Assembly (NCBI GenBank): GCA_018655275.1 | Contig: JABIJZ010000002.1 | Location: forward strand, 195,748-235,747 | Direction of reading: 5' to 3' | From: Candidatus Peregrinibacteria bacterium | GTDB lineage: Bacteria; Patescibacteriota; Gracilibacteria; UBA1369; LOWO2-01-FULL-3 | Length of the DNA: 40,000 nucleotides | In this document: piece by piece, positions 1 to 15,084 of the stretch | Numbering within the stretch: position 1 is the stretch's first letter | How the letters are laid out: every line of letters begins with the position of its first letter | Notes under the pieces: generated by a model | Seen by the model: the letters and a program-made list of their open reading frames with translations, nothing else | Database searches by the model: none | What the model was told of the DNA's origin: nothing | Translations under genes and position numbers: made by a program

Positions 1-2
1 AA

Positions 3-242
3 ATAATAGGAATAAAAGATTTTCGCCAAAACATCACTAATATCTGGAGAGAGGCTCGAGATAAAAACATCAGATACATTGTAATGTACCACACCACACC
101 CATCTTCGAGGTGAACCCAATTGACGAAGAAGAAATGATCCTCGACAACCTTGTCGGAGACATCAAAGAAGCTCGTTCTCAAGTCAAGAAAGGTGAAACA
201 TACAGCGAAACCGAAGTCTACAAAAAACTTGGCATTAAATGA
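3..242 (+). CDS. Phd/YefM-like type II antitoxin, 5' end cut by the window edge
   Basis: Frame-3 translation reads ..IKDFRQNITNIWREARDKNIRYIVMYHTTPIFEVNPIDEEE..KKLGIK. Its TGA stop overlaps the ATG of the downstream RelE-like gene (ATGA). Confidence 0.5.
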   Translation: MIGIKDFRQNITNIWREARDKNIRYIVMYHTTPIFEVNPIDEEEMILDNLVGDIKEARSQVKKGETYSETEVYKKLGIK

Positions 243-511
243 CACACAAACTCGTATACACAAAAAAAGCCTTTGCAGATTTAGCATCTCTAACAAAACA
301 AGACACTAAAAGAATCCTTGAGAAAATTTCGTACTTCAGCAAACAACAAAAGCCCTTAAACTACGCAGTAAAACTAAAAGACCCAAAATACGGAACATAC
401 CGATTCCGCATAGGAAACTACAGAGCAATCTTCGATATCGACAAAAATGGCAACATCCATGTACTCCTAATCCTCGCAATCAAACACAGAAAAAATATAT
501 ACAAGCTGTAG
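239..511 (+). CDS. RelE/ParE-family type II toxin
   Basis: 90-aa ORF. The C-terminal YRFRIGNYRAIFDIDKNGNIHVLLILAIKHRKNIY matches the RelE/ParE signature, and the gene is translationally coupled to the upstream antitoxin. Confidence 0.7.
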   Translation: MTHKLVYTKKAFADLASLTKQDTKRILEKISYFSKQQKPLNYAVKLKDPKYGTYRFRIGNYRAIFDIDKNGNIHVLLILAIKHRKNIYKL

Positions 512-575
512 CGTCCCCCACCCAAAAAAGGTATATTGAAAAAAGTTAAAACCTCACAACCTTAACCTCAAAACC

Positions 576-680
576 ATGGGAAAAGAACGAAACGCTCAAA
601 AAGCCAACAAAAAAGAATCGACAAAAACATTAAAACAAAGAAGAGCAGAGAAAAAAGCAAAAAGAGCGAACAGGGAATAA
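576..680 (+). CDS. possible 34-aa lysine-rich small protein
   Basis: Hand-found ATG..TAA ORF MGKERNAQKANKKESTKTLKQRRAEKKAKRANRE, too short for the ORF track. There is no other support. Confidence 0.2.
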   Translation: MGKERNAQKANKKESTKTLKQRRAEKKAKRANRE

Positions 681-694
681 AAAAGGAGCCAGGT

Positions 695-723
695 TTGACA
701 TTTCAATGAATGGTTGTTAAAAT
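695..723 (+). promoter_or_regulatory. sigma70-like promoter TTGACA-17-TAAAAT
   Basis: Hexamers read directly from the sequence, about 27 nt upstream of the ATG at 750. Confidence 0.4.
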
Positions 724-749
724 CCCTCCCAATCCATTTAACAAAAATC

Positions 750-1040
750 ATGAAACAAAAACCATGTCCATATTTCGACCCTGTAGAAAACGAGCTCTCC
801 CTACAAGTAGAAGTAGATGGAAAGAGTCGTGACATCATGAATGAAAGTGATCCTAGCAAAGCTTGTGCAACAATGCAAATTGCCGGACTATGCAAAGCCC
901 ATTTCAGGAAAGCAATTCCTGAAGTTCTCGCTCAAAATTCATGTAGAAGACCTCAAAAACACAAAGAGTGCCCAGTATTCACCGGAGAACAAGCAATGGA
1001 TAGTTGGAGAGACTCCCTTTTCAACAGTCAGGACCATTGA
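750..1040 (+). CDS. hypothetical protein (96 aa, 5 Cys)
   Basis: Internal ATG of ORF 714..1040, placed just downstream of the promoter. A-ending codon usage matches the rest of the genome better than the overlapping 841..1080 frame does. Confidence 0.35.
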   Translation: MKQKPCPYFDPVENELSLQVEVDGKSRDIMNESDPSKACATMQIAGLCKAHFRKAIPEVLAQNSCRRPQKHKECPVFTGEQAMDSWRDSLFNSQDH

Positions 1041-1094
1041 AGACAAATTCGTAACATCTGAATTACGCTCAACCACCTAACACCATCACTCCTC

Positions 1095-1122
1095 TTGACT
1101 TCCCTACTCCACTCCCTATAAT
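1095..1122 (+). promoter_or_regulatory. fusA promoter TTGACT-16-TATAAT
   Basis: Hexamers read directly, 63 nt upstream of the fusA ATG. Shares the box CTCTTGACTyCCCTAy with the rplC promoter. Confidence 0.5.
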
Positions 1123-1184
1123 ACTCGCGACTTTTCGCTAACGCGAAATTTTCGCAATTAAACAACAATTTAAAACTATTCAAA

Positions 1185-3272
1185 ATGGCTGAAGATTTAA
1201 ATTTCTTGCGTAACATAGGGATCATCGCCCATATCGACGCCGGAAAAACAACTGTAACAGAACGTATCCTTTACTACACAGGAACAACACACAAAATCGG
1301 AGAAACTCACGATGGTGAATCTCAGATGGACTGGATGGAACAAGAAAGAGAAAGGGGTATCACAATTACCTCAGCGGCAACAACATGTTTCTGGAAACCT
1401 TCAAACGGTGACCAAAAATACAGAATCAATATAATCGACACTCCAGGACACGTAGACTTTACAGCAGAAGTAGAACGATCACTCCGTGTGCTAGATGGAG
1501 GAGTCGTTGTTTTCGATGGAGCACAAGGTGTAGAACCACAATCAGAAACAGTATGGAGGCAAGCAGACAAATACGAAGTTCCCCGAATCGCCTTCATTAA
1601 CAAAATGGACAAGATGGGTGGAGACTTCGAAATGAGTATCAAAACTATTTGGGACAGACTTTCGCCAAACGCTATCGCTATCCAACTCCCAATCGGAGCT
1701 GAGAACGACCACAAAGGTGTCATCGATCTTATCGAAAGAAAAGCATACGAATTCGAAGGAACCCTAGGTATAGATATTAAAGAAGTTGAAATCCCAGCAG
1801 ACATGACAGACAAAGTTGAAGAATGGAGAGCAACAATGATCGAAAAAGTTTCAGAATTCGACGACACACTAATGGAAAAATTCGTAAACGGAGAAGAACC
1901 AACAACAGAAGAAATCAAAAAAGGTATCAGAGCAGCAACAATCACAAACCAAATGTATCCAGTAATGTGTGGATCAGCTTTGAAAAACGTTGGTGCACAA
2001 TTGGTACTTGATGCAGCTTGTTGGTATCTTCCATCACCAATGGATCTACCTCCAGTAAAAGGCACAAAACCAAGATCAGAAGAACCTTTAGAAAGAAAGC
2101 TAGTAGACGAAGAACCTTTCTCAGCACTAGCCTTCAAAGTAGCAACTGATCCATTCGTAGGTACACTTACCTACTTCCGAGTTTACTCAGGAACAGTTCA
2201 AGCAGGAAGTTACGCATACAATTCAAACTCAGATACAAAAGAAAGAATGGGACGAATCCTCCAAATGCACGCAAACTCTCGTGAAGAAATCAAAGAGGTA
2301 CATGCTGGAGATATCGCCGCAGTAGTCGGTCTAAAGAAAACAAGAACAGGAGACACTCTCTGCGACCAAGCAAACCAAATCGTACTTGAAAACATCACAT
2401 TCCCTGATCCAGTTATCGCAATCGCAGTTGAGCCAAAAACAAAGGCCGACCAAGAGAAAATGGGAGTCGCCCTTCAAAAACTCGCAGAAGAAGATCCAAC
2501 TTTCCAAGTCAAAACTGACGAAGAAACTGCCCAAGTTATTATCTCAGGAATGGGAGAACTTCACTTGGACATTATCGTTGATCGTATGAAACGTGAGTTC
2601 AAAGTCGAAGCAAACATTGGTAACCCTCAAGTTGCATACAGAGAAACAATCCAAAACGAAGTTGAAATCGAAGAAAAATACTCAAAACAAACTGGTGGTC
2701 GTGGTCAATACGGACATGTATTACTAAAGATCACTCCACAAGAACCAGGAGAAGGATACGAATTCAGCAACTCTATTGTCGGAGGTAAAATTCCAAAGGA
2801 ATATATCCCAGCAGTAGATAAAGGTATCCAAGAAGCAATGACAAGAGGTACCCTCGCAGGATATCCAATGGTAGACATCAAAGCCGAACTATACGACGGT
2901 TCATTCCATGATGTGGATTCATCAGAGATGGCCTTCAAAATCGCAGGTAGCATCGCATTCCAAAACGGATGTAAACAAGCTGGTCCAGTTATACTAGAAC
3001 CAATCATGAGCGTAGAAGTTGTAACACCAGAAGAATATTTCGGAGATGTCATGGGTAACTTGAACTCAAGACGTGGTCAAATCAAAGAGTCTGGAGAAAG
3101 AGGAATGGCTAAATTTATCAAAGCCATGGTGCCTCTAGCAAACATGTTCGGTTACGTCACAGACCTAAGATCTATGACTCAAGGTAGAGCAAGTTCATCA
3201 ATGGAATTTGGTCACTACGAAAAAGTACCATCAAATGTTGCAGAAGAGATAAAGACAAAAAGGAGCACTTAA
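1185..3272 (+). CDS. fusA: translation elongation factor G
   Basis: 695 aa. GTPase motifs [17 protein letters not shown] and NKMD are present, and the gene lies upstream of tuf. Confidence 0.97.
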
Positions 3273-3371
3273 GCGAGTGTAGCAAGCAAAATTGCCTTGC
3301 GCATTACCCTTAAGTTCGCTAACATATCCGTCGCATTTAAAATATATCAATAATTCTTAAAAAAGTTTATT

Positions 3372-4565
3372 ATGGCTGAAGGAGTATTTGACAGATCGAA
3401 GCCACACGTTAACGTAGGTACCATTGGACACGTTGACCACGGTAAGACTACACTTACAGCAGCAATTACAACAGTAGCTGCAAAAAAAATGGGAGGTGCT
3501 AACAAAGCTGTCGCTTTTGATCAAATCGACAATGCTCCCGAAGAGAAAGAACGTGGTATCACTATCGCGACTTCTCACCAAGAGTACGAAACAGAAAAGA
3601 GACACTACGCACACGTAGATTGTCCAGGACATGCCGATTATGTAAAGAACATGATCACAGGTGCTGCGCAAATGGACGGTGCAATCTTGGTAGTATCTGC
3701 AGCAGATGGACCTATGCCACAAACTCGTGAGCACATCCTTCTTGCAAAACAGGTTAACGTACCTTACATCATCGTATTCATGAACAAAATGGATCTTGCT
3801 GATCCAGAAATCGCTGAGCTTTCAGAAATGGAGGTTCGTGAACTTCTTACTAAATATGAATTCCCTGGAGATGATACACCAATCATCAAAGGTTCTGCGC
3901 TTAAAGCGTTGGAAAATCCAGATGATGAAGAAGCTACAAAACCTATCGTTGAACTTCTTGCAGCTCTTGACGATTATATCCCACAACCAGAACGTATTCT
4001 CGACAAACCATTCTTGATGCCAGTTGAAGACGTATTCTCAATCAAAGGACGAGGTACAGTTGCAACAGGTAGAGTAGACCAAGGTATCGTGAACTCAAAC
4101 GACGAAATCGAAATCATCGGTATCAAAGAAACTCGAAAAGTTGTTGTTACTGGTGTTGAGATGTTCCGAAAAACTCTTGACGAAGGTAGAGCTGGAGACA
4201 ACGTTGGACTTCTACTTAGAGGTATCGAACGTGAAGAAATCGAACGTGGACAAGTATGTGCAAAACCTGGATCAATTACTCCACACACTAAGTTCGAATC
4301 TGAAGTTTATATCCTAACAAAGGATGAAGGAGGTCGTCACACTCCATTCTTCAAAGGATACAAACCTCAATTCTACATTCGAACAACTGATGTTACAGGT
4401 AACGTTGAGTTACCAGCTGATGTAGAGATGGTAATGCCAGGAGACAAAGTGAACATGATCGTTACATTGGGAGCGCCTATCGCTCTTGACGAAGGTACTC
4501 GATTCGCTATCCGTGAGGGTGGTCGAACTGTTGGTGCCGGAGTTGTAGCAAAGATTATGGAATAG
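3372..4565 (+). CDS. tuf: translation elongation factor Tu
   Basis: 397 aa with [17 protein letters not shown] and NKMD motifs and full-length EF-Tu-like sequence. Confidence 0.98.
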
Positions 4566-4578
4566 TTATCTTTTATAT

Positions 4579-4798
4579 GCCCTTCAGAGACTGTTTCGGC
4601 CTTGAAGGGCCTTAAGAGAAAATCATTCTCAACAAAAAGACCGTCCCAATGATTTTATTGGCTCGGCCCCAGAAATGGGAAATCCTCGATAGTTACAGGA
4701 AGCAAAACGATCCTGTAACCAAAGTCTCCGACAAGTCGGAGACGCCAAGAACTTTATAGAAACCATATCTATAAACCGAGGATAAATCATAACTCGGT
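4579..4798 (+). promoter_or_regulatory. highly structured tuf-rpsJ spacer, a candidate S10-operon leader
   Basis: At least six stem-loops read by eye: 4579-4610 (8 bp), 4619-4656 (9 bp), 4668-4679 (CCCA-GAAA-TGGG), 4692-4719 (9 bp), 4724-4743 (7-9 bp), 4753-4775 (7 bp) and 4775-4798 (6 bp). Confidence 0.5.
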
Positions 4799-4818
4799 AA
4801 TTTAACTAAAAAACAACC

Positions 4819-5145
4819 ATGGCAGCTAAACAACAAAAAATCAGAATCAGAATCAAAGCCTTCGATCACAAAGTAATCGACGAAACAGCAAAAGTCATCA
4901 TCGACACAGCAGAAAGAACAGGCGCAGTAGTAGCAGGACCAATCCCCCTTCCAACTAAAATCGAGAAATTCACAGTAAACAAATCAACTTTCGTTCACAA
5001 AACAGCTCGTGAACAATTCGAGATTCGAACTCACAAAAGAGTGATCGACATCACAGACGTCGCTCCAAAAACAATCGAATCTCTCTCAAACATCGCTCTT
5101 CCAGCAGGTGTAGAGATCAGCATCAAAATGCTTACTGAGAAATAA
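4819..5145 (+). CDS. rpsJ: 30S ribosomal protein S10
   Basis: 108 aa, begins KIRIRIKAFDHKVIDE.. and ends ..LPAGVEISIK. Position after tuf. Confidence 0.97.
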   Translation: MAAKQQKIRIRIKAFDHKVIDETAKVIIDTAERTGAVVAGPIPLPTKIEKFTVNKSTFVHKTAREQFEIRTHKRVIDITDVAPKTIESLSNIALPAGVEISIKMLTEK

Positions 5146-5169
5146 GACCGCAACCACCACCGGCCCCCA

Positions 5170-5197
5170 TTGACAAAACACACGAAACCGATATAAT
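5170..5197 (+). promoter_or_regulatory. consensus promoter TTGACA-16-TATAAT
   Basis: Both hexamers match the consensus perfectly. Located 25 nt upstream of the ATG at 5223, immediately after the rpsJ stop. Confidence 0.55.
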
Positions 5198-5222
5198 CGT
5201 CTCCTTTTTTAAACACGCAAAA

Positions 5223-6089
5223 ATGATAGAAGGATACGACGCAAAAACCACACTCTTCACTCCAGATCGAGGCGTTAATGGAGTATACAGAATTTACGAC
5301 GTCCTTACACCAAACGCCAGAGAAGATTTTCCAACCTCAGGAATATACGAAAACGAAGAAACAGGCATTATTATTCACCCAGATCAAAAAGGATCCAAAA
5401 TAGCTCCAACCAATGCAGACACAGTCAGGCATGTATCAACCCTGCGCAACATGCCAGGAATAGAAGTCGACTGTCTTCCAATAATGGACAGATGTGAGGC
5501 TGAAGAGTCATATCCAGAAATAAGAGCGTTTTTGGACCTGCTAAGAGCAGATCCCTTGGCAGAGATGACAACCTTCGATATCAACAGAGTCAATTATCTA
5601 ATACACTTCTTAAGAAACAAAACATTAGAAACCGCCGTTGAAACATACCAAACATACGTAGCCGTAATGCTACAATTGGCTGTAAGAAATTTGGCAAAAG
5701 AAAGACAAACAACATTAAGAAACCTTATAATAGGAATAATAGAAAAAGAACTGATACATGATGGATACGAAAAAACACTTACAGCCTTAAACCAAAGAGG
5801 AGAAAGAATAATAGTATTCCCAACAGAAAACGAAAATCCAGACCTCAGAGTAAGAACAAGAACAAATACAGAAGAAACCGCAACAGATATGAACGAAACA
5901 GAGATCGCAGAAAGCGCTTGGCTCCTTAGACTTACAGCAAATATCAGACTGAAATTAAGAGGAGGCATAGCATGGGACGTATTCTTTCCAAAACACCACG
6001 GAAGCCTTAGAGTCATACCAAATTCAACCCAAGACGAACTCACCTTCACCCTGATAGACGTAAGAAAAGAAGAAGAAGACGAAGCCTAA
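5223..6089 (+). CDS. hypothetical protein (288 aa), no recognisable domain
   Basis: Long ORF with genome-typical codon usage and its own promoter. Inserted between rpsJ and rplC. Confidence 0.7.
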   Translation: MIEGYDAKTTLFTPDRGVNGVYRIYDVLTPNAREDFPTSGIYENEETGIIIHPDQKGSKIAPTNADTVRHVSTLRNMPGIEVDCLPIMDRCEAEESYPEIRAFLDLLRADPLAEMTTFDINRVNYLIHFLRNKTLETAVETYQTYVAVMLQLAVRNLAKERQTTLRNLIIGIIEKELIHDGYEKTLTALNQRGERIIVFPTENENPDLRVRTRTNTEETATDMNETEIAESAWLLRLTANIRLKLRGGIAWDVFFPKHHGSLRVIPNSTQDELTFTLIDVRKEEEDEA

Positions 6090-6098
6090 TCTAACAAC

Positions 6099-6135
6099 AA
6101 AAAAAGCCCCCAACCTCTCGGCTAGGAGCTTTTTG
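6099..6135. terminator. possible bidirectional intrinsic terminator between convergent genes
   Basis: An A-run, an imperfect GC-rich hairpin (AGCCCCCAACC / GGCTAGGAGCT, 3 mismatches) and a T-run. Confidence 0.35.
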
Positions 6136-6147
6136 TTCAATATTGTT

Positions 6148-6654
6148 TTATCTATTCAAAGTCGAAGCAATCCTTTCCCAAGCAACCTTACGAGCATCTC
6201 CAACCGAACCTATAATTCCACTACTAGCTGCCAAAGCATCAACCGCTCCATTAACCTTACGAACAGCCAAAGCTTTACCGATAAGACCTCCAACCTTGAG
6301 AGAAACAAGTCTTTCAGCTCCCTCAGGCCGTACAGGATAAGCTTCATCAACAGGTGAAGTTACTCTCTTTGCACCATATCCAGACAAAGAGCTAAGCACA
6401 CCGTGAAAAGCCTCATTAGTCACAACTTGAGCAGAATCAACATCAACACCAGTTGCTTCCACGTACCCCCTCAAAGCATTAGCAAGAGCCCTATATTCAG
6501 GAACTTCAGGTCCAGGAATAGCTTTATACTGAACATGATCTTCCCAATCAGCTCCAGTTGCATCTATAACATCATCATCACTTCCAACAACAGACAATTT
6601 AGTCACAGCACCAGCTGCATCAGCAGCCCCTTTATCTTCAATTCTATCAATCAT
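6148..6654 (-). CDS. small acidic protein, paralog 1 of the 'LRxY..FPVR' triplet
   Basis: ORF 6148..6693. I prefer the ATG at 6654 (MIDRIEDKG..) because its upstream context, TTTAACCATAGAAAT-ATG, matches that of paralog 2. Motifs ALRGYVE and AYPVRPEG. Confidence 0.65.
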   Translation of the reverse strand: MIDRIEDKGAADAAGAVTKLSVVGSDDDVIDATGADWEDHVQYKAIPGPEVPEYRALANALRGYVEATGVDVDSAQVVTNEAFHGVLSSLSGYGAKRVTSPVDEAYPVRPEGAERLVSLKVGGLIGKALAVRKVNGAVDALAASSGIIGSVGDARKVAWERIASTLNR

Positions 6655-6679
6655 ATTTCTATGGTTAAATATTTTATTA

Positions 6680-7102
6680 TTATTTAGATACAACTTCCCT
6701 CAAAATCAAACCTATCCTCCCCCTAATATCAGAAGTTTCTTCATTAGAAACACCCTTCGTCAAATTTGAAAGAGCAAGTCCAAACCGATTCAACACAGCC
6801 GATTCTTCTGACTCCATACTCGCTTCCGGATCCACAGATGATCCTTCAACCACCTCAGGACGTACCGGGAAAAGATCCGTAATAGACCCTTCAGGCCTAC
6901 CACAAATTTCTTCACCCAAAAGCCGAACAATACCTTCAAACGCCAAATTCGCACGAACCTCAGGCCCCAATTCATCAGGGGTTTCACTATCAGCAAAAGA
7001 ATGTTCCATATAGCCTCTCAAAGAATCTGCCAATTCACGAAGACACACATCCTCAAACACTCCATCTCCCTCACTACCTTGTTTTCCCTTGTCTGCACTC
7101 AT
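6680..7102 (-). CDS. small acidic protein, paralog 2 of the triplet
   Basis: ORF 6680..7150. I prefer the ATG at 7102 (MSADKGK..) because it lies downstream of two promoters. Motifs SLRGYME and LFPVRPEV. Confidence 0.65.
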   Translation of the reverse strand: MSADKGKQGSEGDGVFEDVCLRELADSLRGYMEHSFADSETPDELGPEVRANLAFEGIVRLLGEEICGRPEGSITDLFPVRPEVVEGSSVDPEASMESEESAVLNRFGLALSNLTKGVSNEETSDIRGRIGLILREVVSK

Positions 7103-7131
7103 ATTATTATGGTTAAAATTTTCCGGGCACG

Positions 7132-7160
7132 ACTCTAATGAATCGCACAAACTTTGTCAA
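7132..7160 (-). promoter_or_regulatory. promoter TTGACA-17-TAGAGT (minus strand), proximal to paralog 2
   Basis: Read from the reverse complement. Confidence 0.45.
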
Positions 7161-7190
7161 TTTAAAATCACAACAAAGCATAAGAATGTT

Positions 7191-7218
7191 ATTATATACA
7201 CTTTTTCAAAGTTGTCAA
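7191..7218 (-). promoter_or_regulatory. promoter TTGACA-16-TATAAT (minus strand), distal to paralog 2
   Basis: Perfect hexamers on the reverse complement, preceded by GGGG. Confidence 0.5.
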
Positions 7219-7240
7219 CCCCTACCCCCTCACGAACCTA

Positions 7241-7705
7241 CTACATCTCTTTCGTAATAACCTCAGCAAGGACAGCTTCCACCCCACTTCTATAAGAAAC
7301 TGTAAGCAGTTCTGGTTGAGCAGCTCCACTAAACACGGCAGCAGCAAAAAGCACTTTCTTTTTAGCTTCCACTCCCCCTGAAACTGGAGTAGGCGAAGGA
7401 TCAGCACCATCACGAACCGGAAAAGCATCCTCAATAGATACAAAACCTTCAGGCAACGCCTCTCCCATCAATTCAACAATAGAACGATAAGCAAAATCAA
7501 CTCTCCTTTCTATACCTCCGCCAACATCACCATCATTTTCCTCATTTATAACATTTTTTTGCGCCCCAATATAATCCCTCAAAGCACATACAAGCCTCTC
7601 TTGGGGAGAATACGCTCTGTCATTTTCTTCAGCTAGCACAGCTCCTTGGACCAGCGCCAAGCCATAAACTTCCGAAACATCTAGATCACCTTCATTATCA
7701 GCCAT
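7241..7705 (-). CDS. small acidic protein, paralog 3 of the triplet
   Basis: 154 aa with motifs ALRDYIG and AFPVRDGADP. Has its own promoter. Confidence 0.65.
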   Translation of the reverse strand: MADNEGDLDVSEVYGLALVQGAVLAEENDRAYSPQERLVCALRDYIGAQKNVINEENDGDVGGGIERRVDFAYRSIVELMGEALPEGFVSIEDAFPVRDGADPSPTPVSGGVEAKKKVLFAAAVFSGAAQPELLTVSYRSGVEAVLAEVITKEM

Positions 7706-7736
7706 ATTTAATTGATTAAACTATTACAAGAAAATG

Positions 7737-7765
7737 ATTCTAAAGTATTTTTGCAAATTTGTCAA
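7737..7765 (-). promoter_or_regulatory. promoter TTGACA-17-TAGAAT (minus strand) for paralog 3
   Basis: Read from the reverse complement, preceded by GGGGGG. Confidence 0.5.
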
Positions 7766-7819
7766 CCCCCCTAATGAGCCCCACCACAAACAGCCCAAAA
7801 ACTTCAAGAAAAAAAACTC

Positions 7820-7848
7820 TTGACTCCCCTATACCCCTTCTGTATAGT
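7820..7848 (+). promoter_or_regulatory. rplC promoter TTGACT-17-TATAGT
   Basis: Hexamers read directly. The same CTCTTGACTyCCCTAy box occurs at fusA. It predicts an ~80-nt leader containing a 6-bp hairpin (CTTCTG..CAGAAG). Confidence 0.5.
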
Positions 7849-7932
7849 GCAGCAGCAATTGACTCAAGTACGTTAATAGCCTTCTGTTACGGGTTGCCGA
7901 AAATCTGTCAGAAGCACTAACCACTACTCATT

Positions 7933-8514
7933 ATGTCAGGAATACTCGGCAAAAAAATAGGTATGACTAGAATCTTTAAGGAAGATGGTCGCGTGATCCC
8001 AATCACAGTTGTGCAGTGTGAACCAAATGAAATCACACAAATTAAAACAACTGAAAAAGACGGATATCCGGCGATAGTTCTGGGATTTTCCAAATTAAAG
8101 AAACCATCAAAGACAAAGAAATTCTATCATCAAAAAGAGTTCAAAATAGAAGAAGGAGCTGAACATAAGATAGGAGACCAAATTACTTTAGAATCATTCG
8201 AAGAAGTTGAGAAAGCGAGCAAAGTAGTCGCAATCTCAAAAGGTAAAGGATTCCAAGGTGTAATCAAAAGACACAATTTCTCAAGAGGTCCAGAGACACA
8301 CGGTTCTCACCATCATAGAGAACCAGGTTCAATCGGAGCCTGCGCGAAACCAGGAAGAGTAGACAAAGGAAAAAAGATGCCAGGTCATATGGGAACAGAC
8401 AGAATCACATTACAGAACGTTCCTATAGTATATCTAGACACAAAGAACAATTTAATTGGATTGGCTGGCCCAATCCCAGGTGGAACTAAAGGACTAGTAA
8501 TCATTCAAAAATAA
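7933..8514 (+). CDS. rplC: 50S ribosomal protein L3
   Basis: 193 aa, begins MSGILGKKIGMTRIF and contains KGKGFQGVIKRHNF. Confidence 0.95.
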   Translation: MSGILGKKIGMTRIFKEDGRVIPITVVQCEPNEITQIKTTEKDGYPAIVLGFSKLKKPSKTKKFYHQKEFKIEEGAEHKIGDQITLESFEEVEKASKVVAISKGKGFQGVIKRHNFSRGPETHGSHHHREPGSIGACAKPGRVDKGKKMPGHMGTDRITLQNVPIVYLDTKNNLIGLAGPIPGGTKGLVIIQK

Positions 8515-9167
8515 TGAAAGCAGATCTATACGCACAGTCAGGAGAGAAAAAAGGAGAAGTAACTCTAATAAAAGAGATTTTCGAGGTACCTTTCAATAAA
8601 GATCTCGTTCACCAAGCTTTAGTTTACCAATTAGCAAACGCGAGAATAGCTATTGCTCATACAAAGACTAGAAAGGACGTACGAGGTGGAGGCGCAAAAC
8701 CTTTCCGACAAAAAGGAACAGGTCGAGCCCGACAAGGTACTATCAGAAGTGCAAACATGAGAGGTGGAGGCGTAGTCTTCGGCCCAAACAAAGATCGAAA
8801 TTTCTCAAAAAAAATGCCTAAGAAAATGAGAAGAAAAGCTCTATTCTGCGCACTTTCAGAGAAAGCAAAAGAAGGTATGGTCATGGCTCTAGAGAAATAC
8901 GAAGGGGAAACAAAGACTAAACCATTAGTAGAACTATTGAAAAAACTACCTATAAAGAGAGATGTCCTAATAGTAGTTCCAGGAAGAGACGAAACTATCG
9001 AACGATCAAGCAAAAACATCGAAAATGCAAAAACAATTCATGTAAACTACCTAAATATCAAAGATTTACAAAAATTCGACAATGTCCTCTTCACAAAAGA
9101 AGCATTGGAAAAATTGGAGGACGTCTTTCTTACAGAAACTAAATTAGCTAAAGCAGACAATGAATAA
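8514..9167 (+). CDS. rplD: 50S ribosomal protein L4
   Basis: 217 aa with RGGGAKPFRQKGTGRARQG. Synteny supports the call. Confidence 0.95.
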   Translation: MKADLYAQSGEKKGEVTLIKEIFEVPFNKDLVHQALVYQLANARIAIAHTKTRKDVRGGGAKPFRQKGTGRARQGTIRSANMRGGGVVFGPNKDRNFSKKMPKKMRRKALFCALSEKAKEGMVMALEKYEGETKTKPLVELLKKLPIKRDVLIVVPGRDETIERSSKNIENAKTIHVNYLNIKDLQKFDNVLFTKEALEKLEDVFLTETKLAKADNE

Positions 9168-9450
9168 ATTATTCTCAATCGTTAAACCGATCATCACAGA
9201 AAAGAGCACAATCGCTCAAGAAAAAGGCAAATACGAATTTGAAGTATTAAGAGACGCAGACAAAACAACTATCAAAAGAGCTTTCGAAGAACTATATGGT
9301 GTAAAAGTTATAAGTATTACTACAAGAATTCTACCAAAAAAATCACGATTCATTAAAAGAGGTGTTCTATGGGACAAGAGAAACGCAGCAAAAAGAGCAA
9401 TCGTCAGAGTAGAAAAAGGAAAAACTATCGACCCTAACAAGATAAAGTAA
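9160..9450 (+). CDS. rplW: 50S ribosomal protein L23
   Basis: 96 aa with PIITEKS. Lies between L4 and L2. Confidence 0.93.
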   Translation: MNKLFSIVKPIITEKSTIAQEKGKYEFEVLRDADKTTIKRAFEELYGVKVISITTRILPKKSRFIKRGVLWDKRNAAKRAIVRVEKGKTIDPNKIK

Positions 9451-10283
9451 TGGCCCTAAAAAAGTTTAAAGCAACGTCACCGGGGAAAAGACATATGTCT
9501 GTAGCTTCATTCGATGAAGTAACAAAGACTAAACCTGAGAAGAACCTAACTAAAAGAATCAAACAGCATTCTGGAAGAAACAATAGAGGTAAAATTACAT
9601 GCCGACACAGAGGTGGAGGTCACAAAAGAGTATATAGAGACGTCGACTTCAACCAAACAGCGAAACTCGATATCCCAGGAAAAGTTACTGCAATAGAGTA
9701 TGATCCAATGAGAACTTCATACATAATGCTCGTAACATACAAAGACGGAGACAAGAGATACCACATTCTCCCAGAAGGAGTACAAGTTGGAGACACTATC
9801 GACACAAAAGTTAAAGGGAAAGTCAAAGCAGGAAACAGAATGACTTTGAAACACATCCCAGTAGGATACGAAGTTCACAACTTAGAAATATCACTCGGAA
9901 AAGGAGGACAAGCGATAAGATCAGCAGGAGCAAGCGCAACTGTAGTCTCACTAGAAGGAAAAAGTGCACAAATCCAAATGCCTTCTGGAGAAACAAGATT
10001 GGTAGCAAAAGAATGCTACGCAACAATAGGTAAAGTAAGTAACGAAGAACATTCAAATATAAAAGTAGGTAAAGCCGGAAGAAAAAGATGGATGGGAAGA
10101 CGTCCACAAGTAAGAGGTAAAGCGATGAATCCTTGCGATCATCCACATGGTGGTGGTGAAGGAAACCAACCAATTGGTATGAAGCATCCGAAAACACCAT
10201 GGGGAATGCCAGCTCTCGGTTACAAAACTAGAAGAAGACGTTCAACTGATAAATATATCCTAAAGTCTCGACATCATGGGTAG
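9450..10283 (+). CDS. rplB: 50S ribosomal protein L2
   Basis: 277 aa with the DHPHGGGEG motif. Confidence 0.97.
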
Positions 10284-10545
10284 AAGTTCAAAAAAAGGAC
10301 CGTACGTTAATCCAAAATTACTTAAAAAAGTAATGAAAATGGACGAAACTGGTGACAAAAAGCCAGTCAAGACATGGGCAAGAAATTCAGACATACCACC
10401 CGAGTTCGTAGGACACACATTCGCAGTACATAACGGAAAACAATTCATACCAGTATTTATCTCAGAAAGCATGGTCGGTCACAAACTTGGAGAATTCTCT
10501 CCAACTAGAAAATTCAAAGGCCATGGAGGTAAACTAGCTAAATAA
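10276..10545 (+). CDS. rpsS: 30S ribosomal protein S19
   Basis: 89 aa with SSKKGPYV and [10 protein letters not shown]. Confidence 0.95.
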
Positions 10546-10593
10546 CAGTCCAAGAAAGGCAAAGCCGATTCTTGGACCAAATAAATAAAAACT

Positions 10594-11016
10594 ATGAAAG
10601 CAATCGCGAAAAACATTAGAATCTCACCAAAAAAAGCAAACTTAGTTGCATATCTTGTTCGAAACAAGAAAGTAACTGACGCTCTGGACATTCTAAAATT
10701 CACAAACAAGAAAGCTGCTCCATTAATAGCTAAAGTTATCGAATCAGCAGCAGCAAACGCAGAGAACAACCTTAAACAAAAGAGAGACAGTCTGGTTATA
10801 AAAGAAGTTGTTATAAACGACGGCACTACATTCAAAAGACACGTGCCAGCATCAAGAGGACGAGTGCACCCAATCAGAAAACGAAATTCACATATCACAG
10901 TTGCTCTAGCAACTGCGACAGAAGAAAAACCTGCAGAGAGACCAACAAAGAAGCCTGCAGAACCTGCAAAACCTGCAGAGGAAAAGCCTAGCACTCCACC
11001 AACTAAACAAAACTAA
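10594..11016 (+). CDS. rplV: 50S ribosomal protein L22 with a Pro/Lys/Glu-rich C-terminal tail
   Basis: 140 aa, contains ISPKKANLV. The ~30-aa tail reads EEKPAERPTKKPAEPAKPAEEKP. Confidence 0.93.
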   Translation: MKAIAKNIRISPKKANLVAYLVRNKKVTDALDILKFTNKKAAPLIAKVIESAAANAENNLKQKRDSLVIKEVVINDGTTFKRHVPASRGRVHPIRKRNSHITVALATATEEKPAERPTKKPAEPAKPAEEKPSTPPTKQN

Positions 11017-11019
11017 CTC

Positions 11020-11700
11020 ATGGGACAAAAAATAAACCCAAAAGTAATTAGGATAGGAATCACCAGAGACTGGGATTCAAAGTGGTATGCTGAGAAGAAA
11101 GACTACACTCGCCTACTACACGAAGACCTAGAGATCGAAAAATTGATCAAAGAAAAACTAACAGAAGGCGGAATCTCAAGAATAGAAATTCTAAGAACAC
11201 AAGGTAAAGTAATCATAAACATACATACTTCGAAACCAGGAGTAATCATCGGAAAAGGAGGAACAGTAATCGAAAACATAAAAACTAGCCTAGAGAAGAA
11301 CTTCAAATCAACATTCGCAATCAACATCAAGGAAATAAAGAAGCCAGCACTAGACGCAACAACATTAGCAGAAGCAGTGGCACAACAAGTCGCAAAGAGA
11401 GTCTCTTACAGAAGAGCATCAAAGATGGCAATCGAAAAAGCAATGGAAGCTGGAGCAAAAGGAGCAAAGATCAAATTAGCAGGAAGACTAAACGGAGTGG
11501 AAATCGCCAGAGAAGAATTCTTCTCACTAGGTAAAATCCCACTACACACATTCAGAGCAGACATCGACTATGCAAACGCAGTATCACGAACAACTTATGG
11601 AGCAATCGGAATCAAAATGTGGATCTACAAAGGAGAAGTATTTAAAAAAGACAGAGCAGAAGCTCTAAAAAACCAAATCGAAGAAATTAAAGCCGCTTAA
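11020..11700 (+). CDS. rpsC: 30S ribosomal protein S3
   Basis: 226 aa, begins MGQKINP, with KH-domain GKGG. Confidence 0.95.
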   Translation: MGQKINPKVIRIGITRDWDSKWYAEKKDYTRLLHEDLEIEKLIKEKLTEGGISRIEILRTQGKVIINIHTSKPGVIIGKGGTVIENIKTSLEKNFKSTFAINIKEIKKPALDATTLAEAVAQQVAKRVSYRRASKMAIEKAMEAGAKGAKIKLAGRLNGVEIAREEFFSLGKIPLHTFRADIDYANAVSRTTYGAIGIKMWIYKGEVFKKDRAEALKNQIEEIKAA

Positions 11701-11714
11701 ATCAACCAATCAAA

Positions 11715-12128
11715 ATGTTACAACCACGAAAGCAAAAACATAGAAAAGAACACCGCCTAAGAGGTTCATTCGCTGGCAACAGTCACACTGGAAATGCCTT
11801 GAGCTTCGGTACCTACGGACTAAAAGCACTAGGAACAGCGGAAGTAACATCAAGACAAATCGAATCAGCAAGACGTGTAATTACAAGATATACAAAGCGT
11901 GGAGGAAAAATCTGGATCCCAGTCTTCCCCCACAAACCAATCACAAAGAAAGGAGCGGAAGTACCAATGGGATCAGGAAAAGGTGCTCCAGACAGGTTTG
12001 TAGTAATGGTTAAGCCAGGAAGAGTACTGTTTGAAATGGACGGTATAGAAGAAGACATGGCTAAAGAAGCTCTCAGACTAGCTGCCTACAAACTACCTAT
12101 CAAATGCAAAGTAATAAGCAAAAAATAA
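11715..12128 (+). CDS. rplP: 50S ribosomal protein L16
   Basis: 137 aa, begins MLQPRKQKHRK. Confidence 0.95.
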   Translation: MLQPRKQKHRKEHRLRGSFAGNSHTGNALSFGTYGLKALGTAEVTSRQIESARRVITRYTKRGGKIWIPVFPHKPITKKGAEVPMGSGKGAPDRFVVMVKPGRVLFEMDGIEEDMAKEALRLAAYKLPIKCKVISKK

Positions 12129-12310
12129 TGTACAAACTAGAAGAATTAAAAAAATTAGAAAAAAAGAAGCTTCTTGAGGAAATAAAGAAAGCTGAAAAAG
12201 AACTATTCAAAGACGGATTCGAAGTCAAGACTGGGCAAGCTAAAGCAAGCCACAAACTAAGAATCAACAAGAGATACATCGCACAGATGAAGACTCTACT
12301 CAACTCATAA
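12128..12310 (+). CDS. rpmC: 50S ribosomal protein L29
   Basis: 60 aa from the ATG at 12128, which overlaps the rplP stop (TAATG). Lys/Glu-rich helical sequence, located between L16 and S17. Confidence 0.85.
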   Translation: MYKLEELKKLEKKKLLEEIKKAEKELFKDGFEVKTGQAKASHKLRINKRYIAQMKTLLNS

Positions 12311-12321
12311 TTAAACTCACC

Positions 12322-12597
12322 ATGAGATCAAAAAAAGGAACCGTATCATCGAACAAACAAGATAAGACTATAGTGGTCATAGTTCACACATACAAACGAC
12401 ACCCAAAATACCTAAAACGATACCGAACATCTAAAAAATTCCACGTAGACAACCCAGAGAACAAGAAATATGAGATAGGAGAAGAAGTAGAATTCTACGA
12501 AACAACACCAATCAGTAAACTAAAAAGATGGACAGTAGTTGCAGAAAGCGCAAGCGGTTCTGCAACAAAGAGCGAGGCAAAGCCGAGCGATCAATAA
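12322..12597 (+). CDS. rpsQ: 30S ribosomal protein S17
   Basis: 91 aa with GTVSSNKQDKTIVV. Synteny supports the call. Confidence 0.9.
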   Translation: MRSKKGTVSSNKQDKTIVVIVHTYKRHPKYLKRYRTSKKFHVDNPENKKYEIGEEVEFYETTPISKLKRWTVVAESASGSATKSEAKPSDQ

Positions 12598-12610
12598 ATT
12601 ATAAAAAACA

Positions 12611-12979
12611 ATGATCCAACCAGAATCAAAATTAAAGGTAGCGGACAACACAGGTGCAAAAATGGTTAAATGCATCAAGGTCCTAGGAGGCTCAAAAAGA
12701 AAATACGCAAGATTAGGCGACCTTATCGTAGTATCTGTTAAAGAAGCTGCACCAAGAGGCGTTGTGAAAAAGAAAAGCGTCCAAAGAGCAGTTATTGTAA
12801 GACAAGTAAAAGAAACCAGCAGAAAAGACGGTTCATACATAAAATTCGACGAAAACGCAGTAGTAATCGTAACTCCAGAGAAATTACCTAAAGGAACTCG
12901 TGTATTCGGTCCAGTAGCAAGAGAACTTAGAGAAAAAGGATTCCAAAAAATTATTTCTTTAGCCCCTGAAGTATTATGA
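12611..12979 (+). CDS. rplN: 50S ribosomal protein L14
   Basis: 122 aa, begins [17 protein letters not shown]. Confidence 0.97.
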
Positions 12980-13326
12980 AGCTTAAACTCGGAGACGAAG
13001 TACAAATAGCAACAGGAAAAGACAAAGGTAAAACAGGTAAAGTTACTAAGATATTTCGAAACTCAAACAAGATAGTAGTAGAGAAGATAAACATGATCAC
13101 AAAACACATCAAGAAAACAGCACAAAAGGCTGGAGAAAAAATCCAACTCGAAGCACCAATCAACGCTTCAAACGCAGTGCTAGTCTGCCCAAAATGTAAA
13201 AAAACAACTAGAGTAGGCTACAAGAAATTAGACACAGGCAAAAAAGAGAGAGTATGTAAAAAATGTAATGAATCAGTGGACCAAATAGTTACATCAAGAA
13301 AAACAAGTTCTAAACAAAAAAAATAA
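12976..13326 (+). CDS. rplX: 50S ribosomal protein L24 (variant with CxxC..CxxC)
   Basis: 116 aa with KOW motif [20 protein letters not shown] overlap with rplN. Confidence 0.9.
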
Positions 13327-13329
13327 ATC

Positions 13330-13881
13330 ATGGCAAAACCACAAGATCTAAAAACTCAATTTGTAAAAGAAATAGCTCCAAAGCTAATGGCTGAGTTGAA
13401 ACTAAAAAACATCAACACAGTGCCAAAATTGAAAAAGATAACAATCAACACAGGTATAGGTTCACAAATCCAACAGAACGGAAAGGATTTTGACCACATC
13501 ACTCAGAACATCATCAAGATTACAGGACAAAAACCAGTAATCAATATGGCACGAAAAGCTATCTCTAACTTTAAACTAAGAGAAGGACAACCAGTCGGGA
13601 TTCACGTAACACTAAGAGGACAAAGAATGTACGACTTCATGAACAAGCTAATCAACGTAACTATTCCAAGATTCAAAGATTTCCGAGGCCTATCACCAAA
13701 ATCATTCGACGGTAACGGAAACTACTCAATCGGAATAAAAGAACACATCGTATTCCCAGAAATTGACCCAGATGATGTATTGCAATTGCACGGATTACAA
13801 ATCGTAATCACAACAACAGCAACAGACGACGAACACGGAAAAAAATTACTAGAAGCATTCCATTTCCCATTTAAAAAATAA
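13330..13881 (+). CDS. rplE: 50S ribosomal protein L5
   Basis: 183 aa. Synteny and L5-like sequence. Confidence 0.95.
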
Positions 13882-13883
13882 TT

Positions 13884-14108
13884 ATGGCAAGAACAGCACT
13901 CACAGTTAAGAATGATCGAAGGGCCCAAACTGCTCTAAGAAGAAAAGCAGCTGGAAACCCAGTAGTGAACTCAACAAAAATATATAACAGATGCAGATTG
14001 TGCAAAAGAGGTAAAGGTTACATGCGAAAATTCGACATGTGCCGAATCTGCTTCAGAGAACTTGCTAGCAATGGAAAGATCCCTGGACTAAAAAAATCAT
14101 CTTGGTAA
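13884..14108 (+). CDS. rpsN: 30S ribosomal protein S14, zinc-binding (type Z) form
   Basis: 74 aa with CRLC..CRIC and ending GLKKSSW. Confidence 0.9.
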
Positions 14109-14130
14109 AGAAAAATTATAACCTTAAACA

Positions 14131-14508
14131 ATGAACACAGACCCAATAGCAGACTTACTAACAAGAATACGAAATGCCTCAAATGCGAGACTAAATTCAA
14201 CAAACTGCCCACACTCAAAATTAAAAGAGAACTTACTTAAACTAATCCAAAAATTCGATTTCATCGAGAAATACGAAGTAACAAAAGATAAATTCCCAGA
14301 ATTAGTAATCACTTTGAAAGAAGATCGAAAACTAACACTAAAAAGAGTATCAAAACCAGGACAAAGAATTTACCTTGGAAAAGATAAAATGAAACCTCTA
14401 AAAAGCGGCCTAGGAATCTCAATCGTATCAACTTCAAAAGGGTTGATGACAAGTATCGACGCAGCAAAACAAGGCCTAGGAGGAGAAGTACTCTGCGAAA
14501 TAATTTAA
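14131..14508 (+). CDS. rpsH: 30S ribosomal protein S8
   Basis: 125 aa with DPIADLLTRIRNA. Confidence 0.95.
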   Translation: MNTDPIADLLTRIRNASNARLNSTNCPHSKLKENLLKLIQKFDFIEKYEVTKDKFPELVITLKEDRKLTLKRVSKPGQRIYLGKDKMKPLKSGLGISIVSTSKGLMTSIDAAKQGLGGEVLCEII

Positions 14509-14526
14509 TTAAATCTAATCTTACAA

Positions 14527-15084
14527 ATGTCACGAATAGGAAAACAACCAATAGAAGTACCATCAGGCGTTACAGTTGAAATAACTGCAAGCGACATAAA
14601 AGTAAAAGGTTCAAAAGGAGAACTATCTCGTGTAGTGCACCCTAGAATCAAAGTAGAGCAAGAAGGAACTACACTATTAGTAAAAAGACAATCAGACTCA
14701 AAAGAAGACAAGAGTCTTCACGGACTATTCAGAAGCTTGATCGCAAACATGGTAGAAGGAGTTTCAAAAGGTTATGAGAAAAAACTGCAAGTAATTGGTG
14801 TTGGATACAAATTCAAACCTAGCGGAAGCAAAATTACACTAAACCTCGGATTCTCACACCCTATCGATTTCACAGCAAAAGAAGGAGTAACATTTGAAGC
14901 AGACCCAGAAGAAAAAGATATTCTTATAGTAAAAGGAATCGACAAAGAAGCTGTAGGAGAAGCAGCAGCAAAAGTAAGATCTTTCAGACCACCAGAACCA
15001 TATAAAGGAAAAGGTATCCGATACGCAGACGAATACGTAGCACGTAAAGCAGGTAAAGCAGCAGGAGGTAGTGGTGGAGAATAA
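14527..15084 (+). CDS. rplF: 50S ribosomal protein L6
   Basis: 185 aa, begins MSRIGKQPIEVPSGV. Confidence 0.95.
   Translation: MSRIGKQPIEVPSGVTVEITASDIKVKGSKGELSRVVHPRIKVEQEGTTLLVKRQSDSKEDKSLHGLFRSLIANMVEGVSKGYEKKLQVIGVGYKFKPSGSKITLNLGFSHPIDFTAKEGVTFEADPEEKDILIVKGIDKEAVGEAAAKVRSFRPPEPYKGKGIRYADEYVARKAGKAAGGSGGE

What the first reader, a model, noticed from the sequence alone, without database searches (positions are those of the whole stretch)
6148..7705. Tandem triplet of paralogous small acidic proteins sharing 'LRxY' and '[FY]PVR' motifs
Three consecutive minus-strand ORFs of about 168, 140 and 154 aa align over a core. The core reads ..A-L-R-[GD]-Y-[VMI]-[EG] (ALRGYVE, SLRGYME, ALRDYIG), then about 30-45 aa, then [AF]-x-[GS]-[IV]-[VL]..L-x-G, then [ED]-[AL]-[FY]-P-V-R-[PD] (EAYPVRPEG, DLFPVRPEV, DAFPVRDGA). 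The N- and C-termini are divergent. The start contexts of two copies are also alike (TTTAACCATA[GA]-A[A/T]AT-ATG). I recognise no known domain. Local triplication of an orphan inside a core operon is unusual.
Basis: seen in the sequence. Interest (0 to 1): 0.7.

Follow-up and report, generated by a model that had tools for sequence, protein, structure and literature searches.

The report
Species-only triplicated orphan gene cluster
Three tandem, diverged copies of a small acidic protein gene found in only one uncultured Peregrinibacteria species sit, with their own strong promoters, in a gap between two ribosomal protein genes that collects unrelated genes in related species, so they are real genes of unknown function and their ribosomal neighbourhood is probably incidental.

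Summary
Three minus-strand genes, A 6148-6654 (168 aa), B 6680-7102 (140 aa) and C 7241-7705 (154 aa), are acidic (pI 4.9, 4.4, 4.2) and paralogous. A-B and B-C score z = 10.2 and 9.1 against shuffles. A-C is linked only through B. They look like genuine coding genes: the annotated frame has the best codon usage, all indels are in frame, and neutral drift would rarely leave the ORFs open. They carry near-consensus sigma-70 promoters and end at a strong bidirectional terminator.

No homolog appeared in 1.84 billion protein representatives, Pfam, NCBIfam, PHROGs, PADLOC, PDB sequences or viral contigs. The locus recurs unchanged in at least 8 assemblies of the same species.

"Inside a core operon" is misleading. 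The genes are antisense to the ribosomal genes and separately transcribed. In this clade rplC has its own conserved promoter. The rpsJ-rplC gap is 105-4469 bp in the closest relatives and holds unrelated cargo or none. In 137 other lineages its median is 44 bp and its maximum 247 bp.

Function is unknown. A low-confidence model suggests a helical bundle with the FPVR motif in a loop. My best guess is abundant soluble protein-binding factors. Interest is modest.

The parts
5131..7816 (.). Species-specific segment between rpsJ and the conserved rplC promoter and leader. It contains orf288 and the A-B-C triplet.
   Evidence: blastn against the closest genome locus L003: homology stops at window 5130 and resumes at 7817. 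L003 has 425 bp of unrelated sequence without an ORF there.
5170..5197 (+). Promoter-like site of orf288 (TTGACA-16-TATAAT, 12/12)
   Evidence: It is one of only two 12/12 matches in the 40-kb window.
5223..6089 (+). orf288, a 288-aa acidic orphan (pI 4.94) convergent with the triplet
   Evidence: Best codon-usage score in the annotated frame. No family hit. Only itself found in the protein database. AF2 model uninformative, pLDDT 37.
6101..6134 (.). Bidirectional intrinsic terminator shared by orf288 (+) and the triplet (-)
   Evidence: 15-bp stem with T-runs on both strands. Folding energy -24.4 kcal/mol, z = -5.5 against shuffles.
6148..6654 (-). Paralog A, 168 aa, pI 4.93. It starts 25 nt after the B stop codon and has no strong promoter of its own, so it is probably co-transcribed with B.
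   Evidence: Its start region shares repeat D2 with B.
6680..7102 (-). Paralog B, 140 aa, pI 4.37. It is the central member that links A and C.
   Evidence: BLASTP A-B 8e-9 and B-C 1e-6. Shuffle z = 10.2 and 9.1. The AF2 model is all-helical, pLDDT 68 for the best model only.
7132..7218 (-). Two tandem promoter-like sites upstream of B: 7218-7191 (TTGACA-16-TATAAT, 12/12) and 7160-7132 (TTGACA-17-TAGAGT, 10/12)
   Evidence: The -35 region is 90% identical to that of the C promoter (D4).
7241..7705 (-). Paralog C, 154 aa, pI 4.24
7737..7765 (-). Promoter-like site of C (TTGACA-17-TAGAAT, 11/12). It diverges from the rplC promoter, whose -35 hexamer begins 55 bp away.
7820..7848 (+). The rplC promoter (TTGACT-17-TATAGT), followed by a conserved leader running to the rplC start at 7933. 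This is context, not part of the insert.
   Evidence: TTGACT is conserved in 7 of 9 related loci whatever the gap length.

Best explanation
A, B and C are genuine protein-coding genes. They form a taxonomically restricted (ORFan) family that arose by two rounds of local tandem duplication, each of which copied upstream regulatory sequence along with the gene. Together with a fourth orphan (orf288) they occupy a 2.7-kb species-specific insert in the rpsJ-rplC spacer. In this Peregrinibacteria clade that spacer is an open, variable site, because rplC has its own promoter.

The triplet is transcribed antisense to the ribosomal genes, from near-consensus sigma-70 promoters: P_C would give a C-B-A transcript and P_B1/P_B2 a B-A transcript. 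Transcription ends at a bidirectional hairpin shared with orf288. This transcript layout is inferred from sequence only.

The products have no signal peptide or transmembrane segment that I could see by reading the sequences (no predictor was run). They are predicted, at low confidence, to be four-helix proteins with a variable acidic N-terminus. A conserved loop motif [ST]-[IV]-x-[DE]-x-[FY]-P-V-R sits between helix 2 and a variable acidic or Pro-rich linker.

The most likely mode of action is inference only: abundant cytoplasmic protein-binding factors (adaptor, inhibitor or immunity-like) whose paralogs have diversified towards different partners. They are not ribosomal components.
For: Coding and paralogy:
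- Pairwise and shuffle statistics support A-B and B-C, and leave-one-out HMMs recover the omitted copy.
- The annotated frame scores best of six for codon usage, with G1 about 0.5 and GC3 0.2-0.3.
- All length differences between copies keep the LRxY motif, the FPVR motif and the C-terminal helices in one frame.
- In a neutral-drift simulation an ORF stays open in only 2-3% of trials per copy at 25% divergence.

Expression signals:
- The only two 12/12 promoter matches in 40 kb sit directly upstream of orf288 and B. An 11/12 match sits upstream of C. The other three 11/12 matches in the window lie at 695-723, at 1095-1122 (about 60 bp before the fusA start) and at 29724-29752 (about 20 bp before the 1152-aa ORF).
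- The terminator folds at -24.4 kcal/mol, z = -5.5.

Duplication unit: repeats D2 and D4 cover the upstream regions.

Orphan status:
- The exhaustive HMMER search of 1.84e9 representatives returned only the three proteins themselves, as did the word-indexed search.
- Pfam, NCBIfam, PHROGs, PADLOC and PDB sequences gave no hit, nor did viral or metagenome contigs.

Not an assembly artefact: the same three-gene arrangement, at 99.1% identity or more (99.9% or more in all but one contig of about 1x coverage), occurs in at least 8 independent assemblies.

Incidental location: gap statistics and unrelated cargo in relatives, a conserved rplC promoter, and homology with the closest genome-collection locus, L003, breaking at 5130/7817.

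Host-like features: A/T-rich, Shine-Dalgarno-free start regions like every other gene in the window, and similar G+C.

Fold: helices at residues 13-35, 46-62, 99-114 and 120-139 of B.
Against: - There are no expression data of any kind.
- dN/dS between paralogs is near saturation and not clearly below 1 (core A-B about 0.8, B-C about 0.5). Selection on the sequence, beyond keeping the ORFs open, is therefore not shown.
- Population variation is too small to help (99.1% identity or more, a handful of SNPs, some from contigs at about 1x coverage).
- A-C homology is only transitive.
- The structure rests on a 3-sequence alignment, and only one of five models reaches pLDDT 68 (the others 42-48). 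The four-helix description and the loop placement of FPVR are tentative.
- Fold searches gave nothing specific.
- The proposed protein-binding role has no direct support.
Confidence: 0.7

Rival explanations
1. The triplet encodes lineage-specific ribosome-associated proteins, for example acidic stalk-like components, assembly chaperones or regulators of r-protein synthesis. On this view the position between rpsJ and rplC reflects function.
For: The genes lie between rpsJ and rplC. The C promoter diverges from the rplC promoter, with the two -35 hexamers 55 bp apart, which could couple their regulation. The proteins are small, acidic and apparently made from strong promoters.
Against: - The genes are on the opposite strand and form their own transcription units.
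- They are absent from the closest relatives, L003 and L083.
- In relatives the same gap holds a Na/Ca exchanger, an ABC transporter, a TrmB regulator, a Cys-rich protein or nothing.
- No homolog exists in any other genome, whereas ribosome components are usually conserved at least within a family.
- There is no similarity to any ribosomal protein family.
Confidence: 0.07
2. The insert is cargo from a mobile element or phage. On this view the small acidic paralogs are anti-defence, DNA-mimic or immunity proteins, with orf288 as their partner (toxin or effector).
For: - The segment is species-specific and sits at a variable site.
- Tandem arrays of small, acidic, fast-diverging proteins are typical of immunity and anti-defence loci. 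This rests on general knowledge, not on a test made here.
- All four genes are orphans.
Against: - No integrase or transposase is present, and there are no flanking direct or inverted repeats.
- There are no PHROG or PADLOC hits, no relatives in viral contigs and no BFVD fold match.
- Codon usage, G+C, promoter type and Shine-Dalgarno-free starts are all host-like.
- orf288 is convergent rather than co-directional and has no recognisable toxin domain.
Confidence: 0.13
3. The ORFs are not functional genes. On this view they are decaying or accidental open frames, and their similarity is the residue of a recent DNA duplication.
For: dN/dS between copies is close to 1 within the limits of saturation. 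There are no homologs and no expression data. Reduced genomes of uncultured bacteria contain many hypothetical ORFs.
Against: - Three ORFs of 140-168 codons stay open despite about 50% nucleotide divergence. The simulated chance is 2-3% per copy at 25% per-site change and below 1% at 35%.
- All indels are in frame.
- Conservation is concentrated in discrete peptide motifs, and only about half of the identical residues use identical codons.
- The annotated frame has the best codon usage.
- Consensus promoters and a strong terminator are placed exactly around the genes.
- A 1.2-Mb genome is unlikely to keep 2.7 kb of junk fixed across at least 8 samples.
Confidence: 0.08

Closest known systems
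Taxonomically restricted (ORFan) gene families expanded by tandem duplication in bacterial genomes, as is common in Candidate Phyla Radiation / Patescibacteria genomes
   Same: There are no detectable homologs outside one species. The proteins are short and fast-diverging, lie in a local tandem array, and sit at a site that varies between related genomes.
   Different: This is a new sequence family. Each unit carries a near-perfect sigma-70 promoter. The site is the rpsJ-rplC junction of the otherwise highly conserved S10 ribosomal protein cluster.
Canonical S10 (rpsJ-rplC-rplD-rplW-rplB...) ribosomal protein operon, as in E. coli and B. subtilis
   Same: Gene order from rplC onwards, and tuf-rpsJ upstream, is canonical.
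   Different: In 137 loci from other lineages rpsJ and rplC are 44 bp apart at the median and 247 bp at most. Here they are 2787 bp apart. rplC has its own promoter and leader, conserved in the clade, and four orphan genes, three of them antisense, fill the gap.
Generic four-helix-bundle proteins (Dps/ferritin-like, DUF305, Rv2844), which were the top Foldseek hits
   Same: An all-alpha protein of about 140 residues with four long helices.
   Different: The matches are not significant: E above 2, TM-score 0.38 or lower, rmsd 8-9 A. There are no metal-binding motifs and no sequence similarity. This is not a membership claim.
Tandem arrays of immunity genes in polymorphic-toxin loci, and small acidic anti-restriction / DNA-mimic proteins (Ocr, ArdA)
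   Same: Small, acidic, rapidly diverging paralogs in tandem next to a larger uncharacterised protein.
   Different: There is no toxin domain, the partner gene is convergent, and PADLOC, PHROGs, viral-contig and fold searches gave no match. The resemblance comes from general knowledge only.

Membership tests
One paralogous family (A, B, C homologous) | Pairwise similarity significantly above shuffled controls | tested here: met
   A-B z = 10.2 and B-C z = 9.1, with 0 of 2000 shuffles reaching the observed score; BLASTP 8e-9 and 1e-6.
One paralogous family (A, B, C homologous) | Direct A-C similarity | tested here: inconclusive
   BLASTP E = 0.45 and z = 0.4. The best local alignment is in register on PVR. 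The HMM of A+C finds B at 5e-5 and the HMM of A+B finds C at 0.013. Homology is therefore transitive through B.
Genuine protein-coding genes | Coding signature in the annotated frame, and ORFs kept open despite divergence | tested here: met
   The annotated frame has the best codon log-likelihood of six frames for A, B, C and orf288. In simulated neutral drift an ORF stays open in 2-3% of trials. Indels are in frame.
Genuine protein-coding genes | Purifying selection (dN/dS well below 1), or evidence of expression | tested here: inconclusive
   Paralog dN/dS is 0.5-0.8 and saturated. Strain variation is too low to use. No transcript or peptide data are available.
S10 ribosomal protein operon member / ribosomal protein | Same strand as the r-protein genes and co-transcribed with them | tested here: not met
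   The genes are on the minus strand with their own promoters and terminator.
S10 ribosomal protein operon member / ribosomal protein | Conserved at this position in related genomes | tested here: not met
   Absent from all 9 closest relatives for which both rpsJ and rplC were found, and from L083. Their gaps hold other genes or none.
S10 ribosomal protein operon member / ribosomal protein | Similarity to a known ribosomal protein family | tested here: not met
   No hit in Pfam, NCBIfam or PDB sequences up to E = 1-10.
Any curated protein family (Pfam, NCBIfam, PHROGs, PADLOC) | Profile match | tested here: not met
   No family at E up to 1 for A, B or C.
Taxonomically restricted (ORFan) gene family | No homolog outside one species in comprehensive databases | tested here: met
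   A profile search of 1.84e9 representatives returned only the three proteins themselves. The same result came from the 5.8e9-cluster search and from viral and metagenome contigs.
Mobile-element or phage cargo | Integrase or transposase, flanking repeats, atypical composition, or homologs in phages | tested here: not met
   None of these was found.
Polymorphic-toxin immunity array | Co-directional position downstream of a gene with a recognisable toxin domain | tested here: not met
   orf288 is convergent and has no domain hit.
DNA-mimic / anti-restriction proteins | Structure whose surface charge mimics DNA; anti-restriction activity | not testable with these tools
   Only the acidity (pI 4.2-4.9) is consistent with this. 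The model is too uncertain to judge, and no fold match was found.

The most novel reading that the evidence does not exclude
The triplet may be a recently born gene family, either de novo or diverged beyond recognition. On this reading it has been fixed, given top-strength promoters and twice duplicated in a 1.2-Mb reduced genome because it performs a species-specific, highly expressed function. That function could be interaction with the host cell of this presumed episymbiont, or with the translation apparatus next to which it is divergently transcribed. This would make it a tractable example of gene birth and rapid paralog diversification in the Candidate Phyla Radiation.
Probability: 0.12. 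Interest if true: 0.6.

Novelty: new member of a known kind. Interest (0 to 1): 0.27.

Why it matters
If the genes are expressed, a streamlined 1.2-Mb genome maintains and has amplified a protein family that exists nowhere else. That would be a small case study in how orphan genes arise and diversify in uncultured episymbiotic bacteria. The more general, testable point is about genome architecture. In this Peregrinibacteria clade the normally inviolate rpsJ-rplC junction of the S10 cluster has been opened: rplC acquired its own promoter, and the junction now serves as a landing site for unrelated genes. Gene neighbourhood at this junction should therefore not be used for guilt-by-association annotation. 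Without a function or expression data, the finding remains of modest interest.

Tried and rejected
- Remote homology. These searches found nothing beyond the three proteins themselves: the profile search of 5.8e9 clusters, the exhaustive HMMER search of 1.84e9 representatives, Pfam, NCBIfam, PHROGs and PADLOC at E up to 1, the PDB sequence profile search at E up to 10, viral contigs and metagenome contigs queried with B.
- RNA alternative. No Rfam family matched in 4500-8100 on either strand.
- Homology between orf288 and the triplet: none.
- Other copies. None were found in the 40-kb window or in 16 related loci by a six-frame HMM search.
- Remnants of the triplet in the L003, L004, L005, L006 and L008 gaps: none by blastn with word size 7.
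- dN/dS from paralogs was saturated. dN/dS from strain variants was impossible because the population is nearly clonal.
- Literature searches for the source assemblies and for Peregrinibacteria ribosomal operon insertions gave nothing relevant.
- Mobile-element signatures such as flanking repeats: none.
Full report
**What is at the coordinates**

The window carries fusA (1185-3272), tuf (3372-4565) and rpsJ (4819-5145). From 7933 onward it carries rplC, rplD, rplW, rplB and the rest of the S10/spc/alpha cluster, all on the plus strand. Four ORFs without annotation lie between rpsJ and rplC.
- orf288: 5223-6089, plus strand.
- A: 6148-6654, minus strand, 168 aa.
- B: 6680-7102, minus strand, 140 aa.
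- C: 7241-7705, minus strand, 154 aa.

The pI values are 4.93, 4.37 and 4.24. The organism is an uncultured Candidatus Peregrinibacteria bacterium. The proteins are identical to the HOE67_00985-01000 products of GCA_018650345.1.

**Is the similarity more than chance?**

Yes for A-B and B-C. BLASTP gives 8e-9 and 1e-6. Smith-Waterman scores are 10.2 and 9.1 standard deviations above 2000 shuffles, and no shuffle reaches the observed score.

A-C is not significant directly (E = 0.45, z = 0.4), but its best local alignment is in register on the PVR motif. In leave-one-out HMMs the omitted copy is always the best non-self hit among 2847 six-frame segments: 5e-5 for B, 0.013 for C and 0.67 for A. 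The three are therefore one family, linked through B.

The upstream DNA was duplicated too. The start regions of A and B share 27 nt at 81% identity. The -35 regions of the B and C promoters share 21 nt at 90% identity.

**Are they genes?**

- For A, B, C and orf288 the annotated frame has the best codon-usage log-likelihood of the six frames. G at first codon positions is about 0.5 and GC3 is 0.2-0.3.
- The copies differ at roughly half of their nucleotides, yet all stay open. All length differences are in frame.
- In a simple neutral-mutation simulation only 2-3% of copies stay open at 25% per-site change.
- dN/dS between paralogs is near saturation (0.5-0.8 in the core). It does not show purifying selection on its own.
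- The locus was recovered with the same three genes, at 99.1% identity or more (99.9% or more in all but one contig of about 1x coverage), from at least eight independent assemblies. It is therefore not an assembly artefact. This population is too clonal to give a polymorphism-based test.

**Transcription signals**

- The only two perfect (12/12) sigma-70 matches in the 40 kb lie directly upstream of orf288 (5170-5197) and of B (7218-7191).
- An 11/12 match lies upstream of C (7765-7737), and a second 10/12 site lies upstream of B (7160-7132).
- The other three 11/12 matches in the window lie at 695-723, at 1095-1122 (about 60 bp before the fusA start) and at 29724-29752 (about 20 bp before the 1152-aa ORF). 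The consensus therefore seems to be used in this organism.
- A starts 25 nt after B and has no strong promoter. No terminator lies between C, B and A.
- A 15-bp hairpin with T-runs on both strands (6101-6134; -24.4 kcal/mol, z = -5.5) closes both the triplet and the convergent orf288.
- The inferred transcripts are C-B-A and B-A, antisense to the ribosomal genes.
- None of 24 genes examined has a Shine-Dalgarno sequence. All have A/T-rich leaders, often containing TAAC.

**Homologs**

None were found. A profile of the three proteins, run against 5.8 billion clusters and exhaustively against 1.84 billion representatives, returned only the three proteins themselves. orf288 is equally alone. Pfam, NCBIfam, PHROGs and PADLOC (E up to 1), PDB sequences (E up to 10), viral contigs and metagenome contigs gave nothing. 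No Rfam family matches the region. No further copy exists in the window or in 16 related loci.

**Structure**

AF2 on the 3-sequence alignment, with B first, gave one model at pLDDT 68 and pTM 0.61. The other four models scored 42-48. The best model has four helices (13-35, 46-62, 99-114, 120-139), a disordered acidic N-terminus and a disordered linker at 83-96. LRxY lies at the end of helix 1 and FPVR lies in the loop after helix 2. Foldseek against the PDB and BFVD returned only non-significant generic helical bundles. The model of orf288 was unusable.

**The neighbourhood is the informative part**

Loci around L3 homologs were fetched from the genome and metagenome collections.

| Set of loci | rpsJ-rplC spacer |
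|---|---|
| 137 loci from other lineages | median 44 bp, maximum 247 bp |
| 9 closest relatives (L3 identity 57-73%) | 105, 108, 178, 546, 742, 1170, 1243, 2234 and 4469 bp |
| This window | 2787 bp |

The long gaps hold unrelated genes:
- a Na+/Ca2+ exchanger (L004, L005);
- an ABC transporter (L006, L087);
- a TrmB-type regulator and a 503-aa Cys-rich protein (L006);
- no ORF at all (L003).

Homology between the window and L003, the closest locus in the genome collection, stops at 5130 and resumes at 7817. That is exactly at a TTGACT-17-TATAnT promoter with a leader upstream of rplC, and this promoter is conserved in 7 of 9 related loci whatever the gap length. In this clade the S10 cluster is therefore split between rpsJ and rplC, and the junction has become a variable site. 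The 2.7-kb orphan cassette is one species' cargo there.

No integrase, flanking repeats, compositional anomaly or phage relatives point to a mobile element.

**Interpretation**

The following points are shown:
- the genes are real, paralogous and species-restricted;
- they are transcriptionally independent of the ribosomal genes;
- they lie in a clade-specific variable spacer.

The following points are inferred:
- expression is high, judged from promoter quality;
- the products are soluble (I saw no signal peptide or transmembrane segment by eye; no predictor was run) and helical;
- the conserved loop motif with variable termini suggests protein-binding modules that have diversified after duplication.

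A ribosomal role is unlikely because of the opposite strand, the absence from relatives and the unrelated cargo in the same gap. A mobile or immunity origin is possible but has no positive evidence. The non-functional reading is disfavoured by the preserved ORFs and the regulatory signals.

**Verdict**

The 'orphan inside a core operon' framing overstates the case. This is a new ORFan family at a known kind of genomic feature, a variable islet. Its function is unknown and no tool available here could reveal it. Interest is modest (about 0.27). The clade-specific opening of the rpsJ-rplC junction is the most reusable result.

Noticed in passing
window 1-18100 (start regions of 24 genes): No gene has a Shine-Dalgarno sequence. 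The leaders are A/T-rich and often contain TAAC(C) 8-15 nt before the ATG, including upstream of rplC, rpsH, rpsE and orphans A and B. This suggests SD-independent translation initiation in this lineage.
   Followed up: partly
window 7820-7932; L003 5868-6000; L083 about 262-414; also L005, L084, L087, L006: rplC has its own promoter (TTGACT-17-TATAnT) and a leader of about 85 nt with conserved blocks (..CCGAAAATC.. and TAACCTCTAC just before the ATG) across related Peregrinibacteria. This may be an r-protein autoregulatory leader. It has no Rfam match, and its structure and covariation were not analysed.
   Followed up: partly
L003-L008, L084, L086, L087 (rpsJ-rplC spacers): In this clade the rpsJ-rplC spacer ranges from 105 to 4469 bp and carries unrelated cargo: a Na/Ca exchanger, an ABC transporter, a TrmB regulator and a Cys-rich protein. 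In 137 other lineages the median is 44 bp and the maximum 247 bp.
   Followed up: yes
window 25642-27285 (+) and 35657-37270 (-); L006 3322-4833: Two paralogous Cys-rich proteins of about 540 aa with treble-clef zinc-finger domains at both ends (Pfam zf_Tbcl and zf_Tbcl_2). Both are 34% identical to the 503-aa protein in the rpsJ-rplC gap of relative L006. The family is uncharacterised.
   Followed up: partly
window 36104-37276 (+): A 390-aa ORF lies antisense to, and fully inside, the 537-aa gene at 35657-37270. It has no Pfam hit and is probably a shadow ORF. The codon-usage score of the 537-aa gene is itself poor in every frame.
   Followed up: no
window 27282-29737: Three further ORFs without any Pfam match: 27282-28070 (-), 28001-28936 (+, which overlaps the first ORF at 28001-28070) and 28937-29737 (-). 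They lie in a region of strongly negative GC skew. More orphan genes probably exist in this genome.
   Followed up: no
window 33000-38000: Plus-strand GC skew is very strong here (-0.41 to -0.56), over minus-strand genes that encode a PAS/GAF protein, a RelA/SpoT-TGS protein and the Cys-rich protein. G-rich coding strands appear to be a general feature of non-ribosomal genes in this window.
   Followed up: no
L083 1-176 (minus strand): In the relative with the most similar L3 (76% identity), an ORF diverges from the rplC promoter region and runs off the end of the contig (58 aa visible). It occupies the same position and orientation as C but shows no detectable similarity to it.
   Followed up: partly
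window 6087, 6416, 6603, 6834, 6916, 7662 and others: The few strain variants seen in the cassette across assemblies are mostly non-synonymous: B G63S, C G15V, A T18A and N80I, and one change in the orf288 stop codon. Several come from contigs at about 1x coverage and may be sequencing errors.
   Followed up: yes
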